Assembly (NCBI GenBank): GCA_022839785.1
Contig: JALHJW010000010.1
Span: 23,669-87,668, forward strand
Direction: 5' to 3'
Origin: Desulfovibrio sp.
Lineage (GTDB): Bacteria > Desulfobacterota > Desulfovibrionia > Desulfovibrionales > Desulfovibrionaceae
Length of the DNA: 64,000 nucleotides
Shown here piece after piece: positions 15,013 through 62,691 of the stretch. The position numbers and the translations under genes are program-made. The first letter of the stretch is position 1. Every line of letters starts with the position of its first letter. The notes beneath the pieces were generated by a model. That model had not been told where the DNA came from, searched no databases, and was given only the letters and a program-made list of their open reading frames with translations.

Positions 15013-16380
15013 TCATGGCCGCGCATCCGCCCCGGATTCCGGGCGGGGCAGGGGCGCGACCTCGATGCAGCCCTGGCGCACGGCCACGGGACGGCAGACG
15101 GCCAGGCCCCGCCGGGCCGCGCCGCTCAGGGGCGCGGCGAAGCGGCACTCCACGTAGTGTTCGTTGCGGCCGCGCCAGGGGGCGTCGTCCTCCAGCACCA
15201 CGGTCATCCGCTCCAGACGGGCCTGACGTCGCAAAAAGGCCTGCCGTTTCCGGGCAACCAGGGCGCGCAGGGCGGCGGCTCGCGCCGTGCGTTCCGGCTC
15301 GGCGACCTGTCCTTCCAGGCTGGCCGCGGCCGTGCCGGGCCGGGCGGAGAAGGGGAAGACGTGGGCGTAGGTCAGGGGCAGGGCCGCGGCGTTCTCGATG
15401 GTGCGCGCGGCGTCCGCGCCCGTTTCGCCGGGAAAGCCCGCGATGAAGTCCGCGCCCAGGCCGAAGACCGGCCAGACCCAGGCCAGCCGGTCGAGAAAGC
15501 GGTGCACGTCCTCCGGGCCGTAATGACCGCGGCGCATGCGGGCCAGCACGGCGGGCGAGAGGCTTTGCAGCGAGAGGTGCAGGTGCGGCGCCACCAGGCG
15601 GCTCGCGGCCAGGGTCTCCAGCGCCTCGTCGCCGAGCTGCGCCGGGTCCAGGGAGGAGATGCGCAGCCGCGCGTGACCGGCCCAGGCAGGGGCCAGCTCC
15701 CGCTCCAGGCGGCGCACCAGACGCCAGAAATTCCAGCCCCTGGGCAGCCCGAAACCGTACTGCCTGAGGTTCACGCCCGAGAGGACGATTTCGCGAAAAC
15801 CCGCGTCCAGCAGCCGCCGGGCCTCGGTCACGACCGCCTCGGGCTGCCGCGAGGCCGAGGGGCCGCGCAGCAGCGGCACGATGCAGTAGCTGCAGCGGTG
15901 CGAACAGCCGTCCTGGACCTTGAGCACGGCGCGGGCGCGCGGGTAGTCCGCGATGGACAGGGGCGGGAAGGCGTCCCGCGTTCCCGCCTGCCCTTCCTCC
16001 GTCTCGTGCGGGGCGGATATCCGGAGGTCGGCCAGCGCCGCCTTGGCGCGCTGCGGCAGGACGGCGGCCACGCCGGGCAGCGCGGCCACGATCTCCCTGT
16101 CCTCCTCGGGCACGCAGCCCACGACCACCACCGCCGCGCCGGGGCTGGCCCGGTGCGCGGCGCGCACTGCGGCGCGCACGTCGGCCACGGCCCTGGCGGT
16201 CACGGCGCAGGCGTTGACCACGACCACGTCGGCTCCGGCCGCGTCCGGGCTCTCGCACAGGCCCCGTTCGAGCCAGGCCTCGCGCAGGGCCTGGGCCTCG
16301 TACTGGTTGATCTTGCAGCCCAGGGTCCGGATATGGAAACGTTGCCCGCTGCCGGGCGTAAAAACCGTTTTTCTTTTCAT
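15013..16380 (-). CDS. mtaB: tRNA t6A37 methylthiotransferase (MiaB/RimO radical SAM family)
   Basis: TLGCKINQYE, NACAVT, KVQDGCSHRCSYCIVP; start ATG 16380 within the longer ORF 15013..17106. Confidence 0.82.
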   Translation of the reverse strand: MKRKTVFTPGSGQRFHIRTLGCKINQYEAQALREAWLERGLCESPDAAGADVVVVNACAVTARAVADVRAAVRAAHRASPGAAVVVVGCVPEEDREIVAALPGVAAVLPQRAKAALADLRISAPHETEEGQAGTRDAFPPLSIADYPRARAVLKVQDGCSHRCSYCIVPLLRGPSASRQPEAVVTEARRLLDAGFREIVLSGVNLRQYGFGLPRGWNFWRLVRRLERELAPAWAGHARLRISSLDPAQLGDEALETLAASRLVAPHLHLSLQSLSPAVLARMRRGHYGPEDVHRFLDRLAWVWPVFGLGADFIAGFPGETGADAARTIENAAALPLTYAHVFPFSARPGTAAASLEGQVAEPERTARAAALRALVARKRQAFLRRQARLERMTVVLEDDAPWRGRNEHYVECRFAAPLSGAARRGLAVCRPVAVRQGCIEVAPLPRPESGADARP

Positions 16381-58480: not shown

Positions 58481-59071
58481 ATGCGCACATGCATCACCGA
58501 CCGCCGCAGGGATCGGATCAGGGGGGTCCTGGCCAGACGCCAGAAGGACCTCACCCTGGTCATCGACAACGTCTGGGACCCGCACAACGTCTCGGCGATC
58601 CTGCGTTCCTGCGACGCCTTCGGGCTGGCGGCGGTGCATCTGCACTATACGGGCGAGGCCTTCCCCGAGATCGGGCGCAAGTCCTCGGCCTCGGCCCGCA
58701 AGTGGGTCTCCCGCCACCTCCACGAGGACGCCGCGTCCATGGCCGCCGAGCTGAAGGGACAGGGCATGCGGATACTCGCCACCGGCTTCACGGAGCACGC
58801 CAGGCCGCTCACCGAGTGGGACCTGTCCGCGCCCACGGCCGTGGTCCTGTCCAACGAGCACGACGGCGTGAAGCAGGAGCTGCTTCCCTATTGCGACGGC
58901 ATGATCTACATCCCCATGATGGGCATGGTGCAGAGTCTCAACGTCTCGGTGGCCGCGGCCATCATCCTCTACGAGGCCTGGCGGCAGCGTTCCGCCAAGG
59001 GCCTGTACGACCGCCCCAGTTTCTCGGAAGAGGAGCTGGAGGGCCTGTATCGCGACTGGTGCAGCCGATGA
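58481..59071 (+). CDS. trmH: tRNA (guanosine18-2'-O)-methyltransferase TrmH family
   Basis: DPHNVSAILRSCDAFG, SNEHDG, IPMMGMVQSLNVSVA. Confidence 0.88.
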   Translation: MRTCITDRRRDRIRGVLARRQKDLTLVIDNVWDPHNVSAILRSCDAFGLAAVHLHYTGEAFPEIGRKSSASARKWVSRHLHEDAASMAAELKGQGMRILATGFTEHARPLTEWDLSAPTAVVLSNEHDGVKQELLPYCDGMIYIPMMGMVQSLNVSVAAAIILYEAWRQRSAKGLYDRPSFSEEELEGLYRDWCSR

Positions 59072-59137
59072 ATTCCGGACAAGGCGCTCGACCACGGGAA
59101 TCGAAGCCTCGCCCGGAAGACGGGCGGCGGAGGATGT

Positions 59138-59764
59138 ATGCAGCAGGCCATTGCGGCCATCACGGACGGCAAGTGCCTGATCTACCCCACGGAGACGCTC
59201 TACGCCGTGGGTGCGGGCGCTTTTCACGCCAGGGCCGTGCAGGAGATCCTCCGGCTCAAGGCGCGTCCGGCGGATAAACCCCTGCCCATCATCATCGGCA
59301 GCATGGACCAGCTCGGCATGGTCACGGGCTGGTTCTCCAAGGCTTTTGCCCGGCTGACCGCCTTCTTCTGGCCGGGACCGCTCTCCGTGCTCGTGCCCAC
59401 GGGCCGCAAGCTGCCCGAGCAGGTGCGCGACGGGGGCGGCTTCACCTCGGTGCGGCTGACCGCCCATCCCCTGGCCCGCGAGCTGTGCCTGCGCGCGGGC
59501 ACGCCGCTCATCGCCACCAGCGCCAACCGCACCGGCCGTCCGCCCGCCTCCCGGCCCGAGGAGATCGACCCAGCCCTGGCGGGGGAGGTGGCCTGCGTGC
59601 TGCGTGACAAGCCCTGGCCCGGCGGCGGGCTGCCCTCCACCGTGGTTCGCTGTTTGGGCACGGCGGACCTGGAGGTCCTGCGCGAAGGCGCCGTGAGCCG
59701 GGCCGCCCTGGAGGCCGCGGGCTTCACCCTGCGCGAGGCGGGCGGCGTCCGGCGTCCGGTATGA
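59138..59764 (+). CDS. tsaC: L-threonylcarbamoyladenylate synthase (TsaC/YrdC/Sua5)
   Basis: YPTETLY, LKARPADKP, FWPGPLS, ATSAN, PSTVV, LREGA. Confidence 0.9.
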   Translation: MQQAIAAITDGKCLIYPTETLYAVGAGAFHARAVQEILRLKARPADKPLPIIIGSMDQLGMVTGWFSKAFARLTAFFWPGPLSVLVPTGRKLPEQVRDGGGFTSVRLTAHPLARELCLRAGTPLIATSANRTGRPPASRPEEIDPALAGEVACVLRDKPWPGGGLPSTVVRCLGTADLEVLREGAVSRAALEAAGFTLREAGGVRRPV

Positions 59765-59826
59765 AAATTTGAACCGGCCGGAGGCCGTAGCGCGGGTTTC
59801 GGCCGCTCCGGTACAAATTCTGGTAC
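59759..59826. promoter_or_regulatory. Enhancer-like palindrome pair 1 (GTAT-N8-GAAC 59759-59774; GTAC-N8-GTAC 59811-59826)
   Basis: Two related 16-bp sites, 52 bp start-to-start, upstream of sigma54 promoter 1. Confidence 0.65.
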
Positions 59827-59903
59827 CGGCCGGGACTGGGGAAACACCTCGCGTTCCGGTGCAAGGCGTTGGAAAAGCGGAATCTTTCGCCATGTCCCGG
59901 TGT

Positions 59904-59920
59904 TGGCACAGTCCCTGCTA
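59904..59920 (+). promoter_or_regulatory. sigma54 (-24/-12) promoter 1
   Basis: TGGCACAGTCCCTGCTA with GG(59905-6)-N10-GC(59917-8). Confidence 0.78.
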
Positions 59921-59929
59921 GAAAAAAAC

Positions 59930-59995
59930 GCACTTCCTTCCTTTTTTTGCCGAAACCGGCTTTCACGGGGTGGTCCCGTCAAAGCCGGTTTTGCA
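59930..59995 (+). ncRNA. Putative sigma54-dependent small RNA, copy 1
   Basis: Starts at the predicted +1; C/U-rich 5' strand, then an 11-bp plus 5-bp stem with GTGGT loop and a short U run; paralogue at 60444. Confidence 0.62.
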
Positions 59996-60271
59996 TTGTC
60001 GGGTCTGGCTTTCGGATCGCCGCCTCCTGTTTCGGGTATTGTCCGCGACCCGGAATTTCGCTCCTCCCTCCCGTACAAATTTATGAACCGGCGGCGTCGT
60101 TCCGGCCTGCGCGGGGTGGGGAAGCGCGGTCCGCTGCGCCGCCGCGTCCGGCTTGTGGACGTTTCCTCCTGAAATCGGCCGTCCGGCGGCCGCGACGCGC
60201 TGCTGTGCCCGTGTCCGTGGCGCGGCGGCAGGCCGGACAGGAGGGCAGACCCGGCCGCGCCGCCCGGAGGG

Positions 60272-60339
60272 GTACAAAAACATGTACCGCCGCCGGGCTG
60301 TTTTGGGGCTGCGCCCGGGAGGAGTACAAATTGTGGAAC
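60272..60339. promoter_or_regulatory. Enhancer-like palindrome pair 2 (GTAC-N8-GTAC 60272-60287; GTAC-N8-GAAC 60324-60339)
   Basis: Same motif and same 52-bp spacing as pair 1, upstream of sigma54 promoter 2. Confidence 0.7.
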
Positions 60340-60374
60340 GGCAGGACGCGTGGAAATTCGGGGCTTCTTTGTTG

Positions 60375-60387
60375 TAATTAATTGATA
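60375..60387 (-). promoter_or_regulatory. IHF binding site
   Basis: Reverse complement TATCAATTAATTA is an exact match to WATCAANNNNTTR, within an AT-rich tract between enhancer and promoter. Confidence 0.7.
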
Positions 60388-60417
60388 TGTAATGATATTT
60401 TTTGTTTTTTGAGGCGT

Positions 60418-60434
60418 TGGCACGATCTCTGCTA
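60418..60434 (+). promoter_or_regulatory. sigma54 (-24/-12) promoter 2
   Basis: TGGCACGATCTCTGCTA with GG(60419-20)-N10-GC(60431-2). Confidence 0.82.
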
Positions 60435-60443
60435 GATTGAGAT

Positions 60444-60510
60444 CACCTTCCTTTCTTTGCTGAAACCGGCTTTTGCGGGGTGGTCCCGCCAAAGCCGGTT
60501 TCGTGTTTTC
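60444..60510 (+). ncRNA. Putative sigma54-dependent small RNA, copy 2
   Basis: C/U-rich 5' strand, 12-bp plus 5-bp stem with the same GTGGT loop, compensatory G-C for copy 1 A-U, U-rich tail. Confidence 0.65.
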
Positions 60511-60688
60511 CGGCCGGTCGCGTCCGTCTCTTTTTCCGGTAAAAGAGCGCAGCGGCGTGATTTCTTTGGGAGCACCCGGCTGCTTTGCCTTGTCACGGGC
60601 CATGATTTCCCCTACTCTCGAAACTCGGAAATGTTTCGGCCGGGCCGCGCCCGGTCCGCCCACGCCTTCTGCCGGTACCGGAGACGCC

Positions 60689-61195
60689 ATGCTCAAGACG
60701 ATCCTCTGCCCGCACTGCGGCCGAGGGATTTCCGTGTTCGCCAACCCTGCGCCCACGGTGGACATCCTGGTCTACCTGCCGTGGAAGGGGGTGATCCTTG
60801 TGGAGAGGGCGAACGAGCCCCACGGCTGGGCCCTGCCCGGCGGCTTCGTGGACGAGGGGGAGAGCGCGGAGCACGCCGCCGTGCGCGAGGCGCGCGAGGA
60901 GATAGGGCTGGACGTGCAGCTCACAGGCCTTCTCGGCGTCTACTCACGGCCCGACCGCGATCCCCGCTCCCACACGCTGTCCGTGATCTACACGGCCCTC
61001 CCCCTGACCCCCGACGACCCCCGGGCGGGAGACGACGCCCGCCGCGCCGCCTGGTTTCCCCTGGACCGCCTGCCCGCGCCCGTCGTCTTCGACCACGCCG
61101 AGATTCTGCGCGATTTCGCCGATTCGCTGGCGCGGGCGGGCCGTTTCGCCGGGGCCGTGCGTCCCGCCACCGCAGCCGCTCCCCGCGCCCCATAG
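60689..61195 (+). CDS. NUDIX hydrolase with N-terminal CxxC
   Basis: CPHC; Nudix box [23 protein letters not shown]; GGAG RBS. Confidence 0.9.
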
Positions 61196-61203
61196 GAACC
61201 GCC

Positions 61204-62691
61204 ATGCCCGCAGCCGAGCGCGACCGCTACGACATCGTCTTCGTGACCTCGGAGATGTTTCCCTTCTCCAAGACCGGCGGTCTGGCCGACGTGCTCGGCG
61301 CGCTGCCTCCGGCCCTGGCCCGTCTGGGGCTCAAGGTGGGCGTGGTGACGCCGCTTTACGGCCGCATGAAGGCCGAGGAGTTCGACCCGCGCCTGGTCTC
61401 CTCGGACTGCCACGTGGGCTACCCCTGGCCGCCCATCACCGCGGAAATCTACCAGACAGAGTACTACGGCGTGACCGTCTGGTTCGTCTCGCGCGACGAG
61501 TTCTTCGACCGCCGCCAGTACTACAACACCTACAAGGGCGACTATTTCGACAACTGCGAGCGCTTCACCTTCTTCAGCCGCGCCGCGGTGGAATGGCTCA
61601 AGCGCCTCGGGCGCGCGCCGCGCATCGTGCACGTCAACGACTGGCAGTCCGGCCTGGTTCCGGCCTGGATACATTTCCTGAAGCGCACCGATCCCTATTG
61701 GAAGGACACGCGCACGGTCATGACCATCCACAACCTGGCCTTCCAGGGCCGCTTCTCCTCGCGCCTCTTCTTCGACTCCGGCCTGCCGCACGAGGCTTGG
61801 CACATGGACGGCTGCGAGTTTTGGGGCGACTTCAACCTGCTGAAGTCGGGCATCGCCTATGCCGACGCCATCACCACGGTCAGTCCGTCCTACGCCGCGG
61901 AGATCCTGACGCACGAGTTCGGCTGCGGCCTGGAGGGCATCCTCAACAAGCGCGCGGGCTCCCTGCGCGGGATCATCAACGGCGCGGACTACGACGTCTG
62001 GGACCCCAAGCGGGACCGCTACATCCCGTCCTGCTACGCGGCCGACCGCATGACCGGCAAGATGTGGTGCAAGAAGAAGCTGATCCGCGAGTACTACCTC
62101 TCGGACATGCTGGAGCACCGCCCCATCCTGGGCTTCATCGGCCGCCTGCGCCGGCAGAAGGGCATCGATCTGCTCATCGACATCATGCCCGAGGTCATGG
62201 CCATGAACGTAGGCGTCATCATCCTGGGCGAGGGCAACCTCGACTTCGAGGCCCGGCTCCTGGAGATGATGGAGGAATATCAGGGGCAGCTGCACGTCAT
62301 CGTCGGCTACACCGAGGAACTGGCCCACCGCATCCAGGCGGGCTGCGACATCTTCCTCATGCCCTCGCGCTACGAGCCCTGCGGCCTGACCCAGATGTAC
62401 GCCCTGCGCTACGGCACGCCGCCCGTGGCCACGGCTGTGGGCGGCCTCAAGGACACCATCGTGCCGTACCCCTCGGACGAGGCCACGGGCTTCACCTTCG
62501 CCCGGCCGGACAGCCGCCTCTTCCGCGACGCCGTGCGCGATGCGGTGCGGTGCTGGGAGGATTCGGAGTGCTGGGACGGCTTGGTGCGCCGGGCCATGGC
62601 CAGCGATTTCTGCTGGGATCGCTCGGCCGAGAGGTACCTGGAGCTGTACCGCGACCTCGGTCTGGCGCCCAGGCAGGATTTTTTGCGTTGA
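61204..62691 (+). CDS. glgA: Glycogen synthase (ADP-glucose type)
   Basis: [49 protein letters not shown]. Confidence 0.96.

What the first reader, a model, noticed from the sequence alone, without database searches (positions are those of the whole stretch)
59759..60387. Duplicated enhancer-IHF architecture defines an unknown bEBP operator (GTAC-N8-GWAC)
Each promoter has two 16-bp palindromic sites exactly 52 bp apart (59759/59811 and 60272/60324), consensus GTACAAAWWNNKGWAC. The proximal site lies 94-95 bp before the -24 GG. Exactly 51 bp after each proximal site starts an IHF-like sequence: a perfect match at 60375-60387 and a degenerate CAAGGCGTTGGAA at 59862-59874. This is the textbook layout for activation by a bacterial enhancer-binding protein with IHF looping. 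The geometry is preserved although the spacer sequences differ. No bEBP gene is in the window, so the activator acts in trans and the motif can be used to find its regulon.
Basis: partly seen in the sequence, partly recalled or inferred. Interest (0 to 1): 0.7.

Follow-up and report, generated by a model that had tools for sequence, protein, structure and literature searches.

The report
Conserved enhancer operator of anti-porin sRNAs
The repeated 16-bp palindromes are a real binding site, conserved across the Desulfovibrionaceae, that sits upstream of sigma54-driven small RNAs and of the porin genes those RNAs appear to silence; it probably belongs to the one D. vulgaris enhancer-binding regulator (DVU3220 type) whose target site was unknown.

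Summary
Five sites fitting GTAY-N8-GWAC lie at 59759, 59811, 60073, 60272 and 60324. Two sigma54 promoters (TGGCAC-N6-TGCT at 59904 and 60418) each drive a roughly 65-nt sRNA.

The same layout recurs at 60 distinct sRNA promoters in about 45 Desulfovibrionaceae genomes, including D. vulgaris Hildenborough (DvH). The refined consensus is GTWMAAAWWTTTKWAC. The two sites are 51-53 bp apart in 44 of 57 promoters. The proximal site sits at positions stepped by one helical turn (-92, -103, -114, -124, -137). IHF-like sites are about three times enriched, clustering near -52 and -41.

The operator also lies upstream of sigma70-type promoters. It occurs as two abutting sites at the major porin genes in many genera, and as one site at a DegP-like gene in this genome. 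The porin ribosome-binding regions are complementary to the sRNA seeds, 17 nt perfectly here.

The motif matches no published DvH enhancer-binding-protein (EBP) motif. By elimination across genomes, the best candidate regulator is the DVU3221/DVU3220-type kinase and response-regulator pair. That assignment is inferred, not shown. The IHF-like sequence at promoter 1 is weak.

Overall this is a new member of a known kind of system.

The parts
59759..59774 (.). Distal operator site of promoter 1 (GTATGAAAATTTGAAC)
   Evidence: PWM score 14.8; 52 bp from the proximal site.
59811..59826 (.). Proximal operator site of promoter 1 (GTACAAATTCTGGTAC)
   Evidence: PWM score 14.9; starts 93 bp before TGGCAC.
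59862..59874 (-). Weak IHF-like sequence of promoter 1 (TTCCAACGCCTTG, 2 mismatches)
   Evidence: not better than shuffled controls; the spacer here is GC-rich.
59904..59919 (+). Sigma54 promoter 1 (TGGCACAGTCCCTGCT)
   Evidence: matches the covariance model R1 (E 6.3e-10).
59930..59995 (+). sRNA 1, ends approximate: seed CUUCCUUCCUUUUUUUGCC plus terminator hairpin
   Evidence: (fold z-score -5.2).
60073..60088 (.). Fifth, unpaired operator site (GTACAAATTTATGAAC)
   Evidence: PWM score 15.6; 199 bp upstream of the 60272 site.
60272..60287 (.). Distal operator site of promoter 2 (GTACAAAAACATGTAC)
60324..60339 (.). Proximal operator site of promoter 2 (GTACAAATTGTGGAAC)
   Evidence: starts 94 bp before TGGCAC.
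60376..60388 (-). IHF consensus site of promoter 2 (TATCAATTAATTA, 0 mismatches), inside an AT-rich tract
   Evidence: perfect match at -43 from TGGCAC, in the position class shared by relatives.
60418..60433 (+). Sigma54 promoter 2 (TGGCACGATCTCTGCT)
   Evidence: E 1.4e-14.
60444..60505 (+). sRNA 2, ends approximate: seed CCUUCCUUUCUUUGCUG plus terminator hairpin
   Evidence: 17-nt perfect complement to the porin 5'UTR at G000:C54.

Best explanation
The 16-bp dyads (family consensus GTWMAAAWWTTTKWAC) are the upstream activating sites of an NtrC-family response regulator. Two dimers bind five helical turns apart, centred roughly 112 and 164 bp upstream of each inferred start site. An IHF-type bend in the AT-rich spacer, clear at promoter 2, brings them to sigma54-RNA polymerase. 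This switches on two paralogous small RNAs whose single-stranded CCUUCCUUU seed pairs with the ribosome-binding region of the major porin mRNAs. The same protein also binds two abutting copies of the operator just upstream of the sigma70-type porin promoters, and one copy at a DegP-like protease gene. One signal therefore acts on porin transcription and on porin translation together, an envelope-type feed-forward circuit. The most likely regulator is the orthologue of D. vulgaris DVU3220, at G000:C36:479163-480536, with its membrane kinase DVU3221 at C36:480537-482324. Shown here: the sites, their conservation, spacing and phasing; the promoters; the sRNA-porin complementarity; and the phylogenetic distribution. 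Inferred: who binds the sites, the sign of regulation at porin promoters, the IHF dependence and the inducing signal.
For: The site pair recurs at 60 distinct sRNA promoters, with 51-53 bp spacing in 44 of 57. The proximal site falls at positions stepped by about 10.5 bp. IHF-like matches with 0-1 mismatch occur in 22 of 60 spacers against 6.9 expected, clustered near -52 and -41. The genome-wide PWM scan puts the top non-window hits upstream of two tandem porin genes and a DegP-like gene. Paired abutting sites lie upstream of porin genes in at least 12 other genomes, including DvH DVU0799. The sRNA seed and the porin RBS are complementary: 17 nt perfect, and the extended complement is unique to the two porin leaders in this genome. 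The pairing co-varies across genera. On the regulator: G054 has only 6 bEBPs. The DVU2934-like, DVU1063/FlrC-like and DVU1419-like orthologues are each missing from complete genomes that have the sRNA and the operator. The FlrA-like protein has its own motif in front of its own gene. The DVU3220-like response regulator is single-copy in 188 of 201 genomes and present in all 45 strongly sRNA-positive genomes searched, as well as in G149 and G187. DVU3220 is the one functional DvH EBP for which Kazakov et al. 2015 (PMC4641369) had no motif. In G105 an sRNA with its operator lies directly upstream of the response-regulator gene.
Against: There is no binding or expression data. Only DNA metagenome runs hold this sequence. 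The only published DVU3220 target, the DVU1231 promoter bound in an EMSA by Rajeev et al. 2011, contains no copy of the motif. No operator copy lies near the kinase and response-regulator operon in five genomes examined. Sites at -60 to -95 of sigma70 promoters are unusual for a bEBP and would suit an ordinary class I activator. The elimination argument assumes that one orthologous bEBP serves all genomes. The FlrA-like protein was excluded by its motif, not by its distribution. Promoter 1 lacks a convincing IHF site.
Confidence: 0.6

Rival explanations
1. The dyads are bound by a regulator that is not a bEBP, for example a conventional dimeric or OmpR-like factor. It co-regulates porin genes and the sRNA genes. 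The sigma54 promoters are then activated by a bEBP that binds elsewhere or acts without specific DNA binding.
For: At porin and degP genes the sites sit at class I-like positions upstream of sigma70-type -35/-10 elements, where a bEBP ATPase has no known activating role. The DVU3220 EMSA target lacks the motif.
Against: The dyads are the only conserved elements in the -90 to -170 region of 60 sigma54 promoters. Their distance to the promoter changes in steps of one helical turn, as expected for the protein that contacts sigma54 polymerase. bEBPs such as FleQ are known to act at sigma70 promoters too (established knowledge).
Confidence: 0.22
2. The dyads are bEBP sites, but the bEBP is a different protein. 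It could be the FlrA-like regulator, or non-orthologous regulators in different lineages.
For: The FlrA-type motif (GTCA-N6-TGAC) is of similar style. FlrA-type distribution was not tested. Elimination rests on E-value cut-offs for orthology.
Against: The FlrA motif is 2 bp shorter and is found in front of the flrA-like gene itself. The operator is uniform across the family, which argues for one conserved DNA-binding domain. Only the DVU3220-type protein is both ubiquitous and 68-81% identical.
Confidence: 0.12
3. The dyads are not protein sites. They are A-tract/T-tract bending or UP-like sequences, or chance AT-rich matches in a GC-rich genome.
For: The centre of the motif is AAAA/TTTT. AT-rich DNA is generally enriched in promoters.
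Against: The outer GT and AC positions are the most conserved: G1 in 81 of 88, C16 in 81 of 88 and T2 in 71 of 88 strand-symmetrised sites. Only 12 hits with score 13.5 or more exist in 3.49 Mb, and 9 of them are at the sRNA, porin and degP promoters. Spacing and phasing are fixed.
Confidence: 0.04

Closest known systems
NtrC/NifA-type sigma54 enhancers with IHF (glnAp2, nifH)
   Same: -24/-12 promoter; dyad sites about 100-170 bp upstream; a bend site in between; face-of-helix dependence.
   Different: The dyad sequence is different. The two sites are about 52 bp apart rather than adjacent. The products are small RNAs. The same operator is reused at sigma70-type promoters.
GlrK/GlrR (QseE/QseF)-sigma54-GlmY and LuxO-sigma54-Qrr1-5 sRNA circuits (established knowledge)
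   Same: A two-component bEBP activates sigma54-dependent, often multi-copy, sRNAs from upstream dyads, with IHF involved at glmY. The output concerns the envelope or global physiology.
   Different: The operator differs (TGTC-N10-GACA; TTGCA-N3-TGCAA). The taxa differ. The targets here are porin mRNAs. No orthology was shown: the best NCBIfam scores for the response regulator are below every equivalog cut-off.
EnvZ/OmpR with MicF/OmrAB, and sigmaE with MicA/RybB, in enterobacteria (established knowledge)
   Same: One envelope-responsive regulator controls both porin gene promoters and sRNAs that block porin translation at the ribosome-binding site.
   Different: The regulator class (sigma54 bEBP) and the promoter type differ. 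The porins belong to the DESULF_POR1 family. The direction of control at porin promoters is unknown.
Published D. vulgaris Hildenborough EBP motifs (Kazakov 2015, PMC4641369; Rajeev 2011, PMC3333781)
   Same: Same organism group, same approach and the same kind of palindromic upstream site. Four other sigma54-dependent ncRNAs are already listed there.
   Different: None of the 33 motifs matches. The nearest are DVU3381 (TGTAYA-N5-TRTACA, 17 bp) and DVU2894 (GTCA-N6-TGAC, 14 bp). The two DvH sRNA loci found here (near 272,712 and 3,269,637) are not in their promoter list.

Membership tests
sigma54 promoter with bEBP upstream activating sites | -24 GG / -12 GC element with correct spacing | tested here: met
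   TGGCAC-N6-TGCT at 59904 and 60418; conserved in 157 of 201 family genomes by model R1.
sigma54 promoter with bEBP upstream activating sites | Dyad-symmetric sites 80-200 bp upstream, conserved in relatives | tested here: met
   60 promoters; consensus GTWMAAAWWTTTKWAC.
sigma54 promoter with bEBP upstream activating sites | Helical phasing between upstream site and promoter | tested here: met
   Proximal-site starts cluster at -92, -103, -114, -124 and -137.
sigma54 promoter with bEBP upstream activating sites | IHF or another bend site between upstream site and promoter | tested here: inconclusive
   Perfect site at promoter 2. Promoter 1 has a 2-mismatch site at chance level. Across the family, 22 of 60 spacers have 0-1 mismatch against 6.9 expected.
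sigma54 promoter with bEBP upstream activating sites | Site occupied by an AAA+ activator; ATP-dependent open-complex formation | not testable with these tools
   Needs EMSA, footprinting or in vitro transcription.
DVU3221/DVU3220-type two-component regulon | Regulator orthologue present wherever the operator and sRNA are present | tested here: met
   45 of 45 strongly positive genomes, plus G149 and G187; 188 of 201 overall, single copy.
DVU3221/DVU3220-type two-component regulon | Known DVU3220-bound DNA (DVU1231 promoter) carries the motif | tested here: not met
   No PWM hit of 7 or more within 450 bp upstream of the DVU1231 sigma54 promoter in DvH.
DVU3221/DVU3220-type two-component regulon | Direct binding of the response regulator to the operator | not testable with these tools
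   DAP-chip was never done for DVU3220.
Any published DvH EBP motif | Same half-site and same spacing | tested here: not met
   Text searches of the Kazakov 2015 site tables.
Rfam RNA families (for the transcribed products) | Match at gathering score | tested here: not met
   No hit near a gathering score in 59000-61500.
Regulator-porin-sRNA feed-forward loop (OmpR/MicF-like logic) | Same operator at porin promoters and at promoters of sRNAs complementary to the porin RBS | tested here: met
   This is sequence-level evidence only.

The most novel reading that the evidence does not exclude
DVU3221/DVU3220 is the master porin and envelope two-component system of the Desulfovibrionaceae. It would be a functional analogue of EnvZ/OmpR built on sigma54. 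One response regulator would work as an enhancer-binding activator of multi-copy anti-porin sRNAs and, through abutting operator pairs, as a direct regulator of sigma70 porin promoters.
Probability: 0.4. Interest if true: 0.7.

Novelty: new member of a known kind. Interest (0 to 1): 0.55.

Why it matters
This would give a binding motif and a regulon to the only functional sigma54 activator of the model sulfate reducer D. vulgaris Hildenborough that lacks one. It would add two unlisted sigma54-dependent sRNAs to that organism. It would also give the first regulatory model for the family's major porins (DVU0799 type), for which the paper that characterised DVU0799 (PMC5686591) mentions no promoter, transcriptional or small-RNA control. 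The circuit can be tested directly in a genetically tractable laboratory strain.

Tried and rejected
1. Rfam scan of the locus found nothing.

2. I looked for a bEBP gene next to the sRNA in 13 relatives. Only one unrelated case turned up.

3. I first took own C36:158428 for the DVU3220 orthologue, using the DNA-binding-domain table of Kazakov 2015, and 'excluded' it. DvH coordinates later showed it is DVU3023-like. The table as held appears shifted by one row (with coordinates). The true DVU3220 orthologue is C36:479163.

4. I considered the nearly ubiquitous orphan bEBP at C1:272831. It is FlrC/DVU1063-like and is absent from G149 and G187, which have the sRNA and the operator.

5. DVU3305-type motif: none exists in this genome or beside the response regulator in four relatives. 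In DvH it does lie upstream of porin DVU0371.

6. Autoregulation: no operator copy lies near the kinase and response-regulator operon.

7. The DVU1231 promoter has no motif.

8. Expression evidence: only DNA metagenome runs hold the sequence.

9. I tried to locate the D. alaskensis G20 sRNA reported at 3,627,439 via G023, but that genome is not G20.

10. The Burkholderia NcS25 sRNA is not itself sigma54-dependent, so it was dropped as an analogue.

Full report
**What is in the window.** The interval between a tsaC-like gene (ending at 59764) and a NUDIX-glgA operon holds two co-oriented units of the same build. Each unit has two 16-bp dyads 52 bp apart, then a sigma54 promoter whose -24 GG lies 94 or 95 bp after the start of the proximal dyad. 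A transcript of about 65 nt follows, with a single-stranded CCUUCCUUU-type 5' part and a strong terminator hairpin (fold z-scores -5.2 and -4.2, with one compensatory pair between the two copies). The dyads are at 59759, 59811, 60272 and 60324, and a fifth, unpaired one is at 60073. The loose pattern gives 12 strand-counted matches in the window against 0.65 expected. The two TGGCAC-N6-TGCT elements compare with 0.1 expected. The window is G000:C58:23669-87668 of a 3.49-Mb, 68% GC genome. The sequence is found in anaerobic-digester metagenomes.

**IHF.** A perfect WATCAANNNNTTR match lies on the minus strand at 60376-60388, within an AT-rich tract. The promoter-1 sequence at 59862-59874 has two mismatches on the minus strand and sits in GC-rich DNA, which is no better than shuffled sequence gives. 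Across 60 related promoters, 22 spacers have a match with 0-1 mismatch against 6.9 expected from shuffles. These matches cluster near -52 and -41 relative to TGGCAC, and AT content rises to 63-77% between -60 and -20. A bend site is therefore a family feature. It is convincing at promoter 2 and doubtful at promoter 1.

**Conservation of the operator.**
- BLAST found homologous sRNA units in relatives.
- A sequence-only covariance model of promoter plus seed (R1) found them in 157 of 201 genomes sampled from the family, often as tandem arrays.
- An exact-pattern scan of named genomes placed them in Pseudodesulfovibrio, Oleidesulfovibrio, Nitratidesulfovibrio, Humidesulfovibrio, Desulfocurvus, Maridesulfovibrio (up to seven copies), Salidesulfovibrio and D. 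piger. It also returned scattered single-copy matches in unrelated taxa, which I take to be chance.
- Upstream of nearly every unit are two sites that refine the motif to GTWMAAAWWTTTKWAC. The outer GT and AC are the most conserved positions.
- Among 57 promoters with two scorable sites, 44 have a spacing of 51-53 bp.
- The proximal site starts at -92, -103, -114, -124 or -137, that is, in steps of one helical turn. Such phasing is what a protein that must reach sigma54 polymerase by looping would require. It is the main argument that the dyad-binding protein is itself the enhancer-binding protein (bEBP).

**Regulon.** A PWM built from 44 footprinted sites gives only 12 hits with score 13.5 or more in the whole genome.
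- Five of these are the window sites.
- The two best hits, and one more, lie upstream of two tandem genes on contig C54 (start codons near 15095 and 16798, minus strand).
- One hit lies immediately upstream of a TTTACA-16-TATAGT promoter of a DegP/HtrA-type protease gene (C73:345822).
- One hit is intergenic and unassigned (C36:29755).
- Two hits are inside coding sequence.

The C54 genes encode DESULF_POR1 homotrimeric porins (NF033939, E 2e-138). The C73 protein has Trypsin_2 and PDZ domains.

**sRNA targets.** The porin leaders read CAGCAAAGAAAGGAAGGAAACAAUG and GCAAAGGAAGGAAGGAAAACAAUG. The first is a 17-nt perfect complement of the sRNA 2 seed. The extended complement GCAAAG(A/G)AAGGAAGG occurs nowhere else in the genome ahead of a start codon.

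**Porin promoters in other genomes.** Porin homologues carry the operator in twelve or more other genomes, including D. vulgaris Hildenborough DVU0799. It is usually present as two abutting copies (starts 17 bp apart) about 20-25 bp upstream of a sigma70-type -35 element. Their leaders co-vary with the local sRNA seed. The operator therefore links anti-porin sRNAs, porin promoters and, in this genome, degP. The sign of control at the sigma70 promoters cannot be read from sequence.

**Which regulator.**
- No bEBP gene lies in the window or beside most sRNA loci.
- This genome has at least 22 bEBPs.
- G054 (2.5 Mb, 98% complete) has the sRNA and operator but only six bEBPs, and five of them have orthologues here.
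- G044 is DvH. Its chromosome length is 3,570,858 bp, and the published DVU1231 promoter sequence is found in it exactly. This allowed naming by coordinate: C69:4849 is DVU2934-like, C1:272831 is DVU1063/FlrC-like, C57:136961 is DVU1419-like, C1:161781 is DVU2894/FlrA-like and C36:479163 is DVU3220-like.
- The first three are each missing from complete genomes that have the sRNA and operator.
- The FlrA-like protein has its own GTCA-N6-TGAC site in front of its own gene.
- The DVU3220-like response regulator is always preceded by a membrane histidine kinase with an unassigned periplasmic domain. It is single-copy in 188 of 201 genomes at 68-81% identity. It is present in all 45 strongly positive genomes searched, as well as in G149 and G187.
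- Independently, Kazakov et al. 2015 state that DVU3220 is the one EBP for which they had no motif. Rajeev et al. 2011 did no DAP-chip for it and call it one of only two response regulators conserved in all Desulfovibrio.
- In G105 an sRNA with a top-scoring operator lies directly upstream of the response-regulator gene.

**Evidence against the assignment.** The DVU1231 promoter, which DVU3220 shifted in an EMSA, has no copy of the motif. No autoregulatory operator was found. The assignment is therefore an inference, and I put it at a little over one half.

**Comparison with what is known.** The architecture is the textbook NtrC/IHF/sigma54 enhancer. In logic it resembles GlrR-GlmY and LuxO-Qrr (bEBP-driven, multi-copy sRNAs) and OmpR-MicF or sigmaE-MicA/RybB (one regulator acting on porin genes and on anti-porin sRNAs). 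The motif matches none of the 33 published DvH EBP motifs. The nearest, DVU3381 and DVU2894, differ in length by one and two base pairs. The sRNAs have no Rfam family. The two DvH copies (promoters near 272,712 and 3,269,637) are absent from the published sigma54 promoter list. The paper that characterised the major porin DVU0799 (PMC5686591) mentions no promoter, transcriptional or small-RNA control of these porins.

**Verdict.** The thing is a new operator and regulon within a well-known kind of mechanism. Its interest lies in filling the last gap in a model organism's sigma54 regulome and in exposing a family-wide porin circuit. Confidence that the dyads are a functional conserved operator is about 0.9. 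Confidence that they are bEBP sites is about 0.75. Confidence that the bEBP is the DVU3220 orthologue is about 0.55.

Noticed in passing
G000:C54:13700-17000 (own genome, outside the window): Two tandem DESULF_POR1 porin genes. Their leaders are complementary to the window's sRNA seeds (17 nt perfect for sRNA 2) and their promoters carry the operator (15188; 16912 plus 16929).
   Followed up: yes
G000:C73:345822-347370: A single operator copy ends 5 bp upstream of a TTTACA-16-TATAGT promoter of a DegP/HtrA-type protease gene. Conservation in relatives was not checked.
   Followed up: partly
L210 (G044:C1:3268801-3270200) and L211 (G044:C1:272001-273400): D. vulgaris Hildenborough has two sRNAs of this family with sigma54 promoters and paired operators (51 and 53 bp apart). 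Neither is in the published sigma54 promoter list.
   Followed up: partly
L212 (G044:C1:417980-418070): Three TGTTGCGAATGCAACA sites (the published DVU3305 motif) lie upstream of porin DVU0371, under the top DVU3305 DAP-chip peak. A second bEBP-type regulator therefore seems to target a porin gene in DvH.
   Followed up: partly
Kazakov 2015 Additional file 2, as held in the paper library: The DNA-binding-domain sequences appear shifted by one row against the gene names for the response regulators. For example, the sequence listed under DVU3305 belongs, by genome coordinate, to DVU3220. Orthology read from that table is misleading.
   Followed up: partly
L153, L098, L125 (Maridesulfovibrio and other Desulfovibrionaceae): Tandem arrays of up to seven sRNA units with a period of about 227-303 bp. 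In the array that was inspected (four units, L020), each unit has its own promoter and operator pair.
   Followed up: partly
L207 (G105:C91:3370-5212): An sRNA unit with a top-scoring operator lies directly upstream of the DVU3220-type response-regulator gene. No kinase orthologue was seen in the 8 kb fetched.
   Followed up: partly
G000:C36:29755-29770: A high-scoring operator-like site (GTGCAATTTTTTGTAC) lies in an intergenic region upstream of a radical-SAM activating-enzyme-like gene. Its meaning is unknown.
   Followed up: no
window 60073-60088: The fifth operator copy is unpaired and lies 199 bp (about 19 helical turns) upstream of the distal site of promoter 2. It may be a third upstream site or the remnant of a lost unit.
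   Followed up: no
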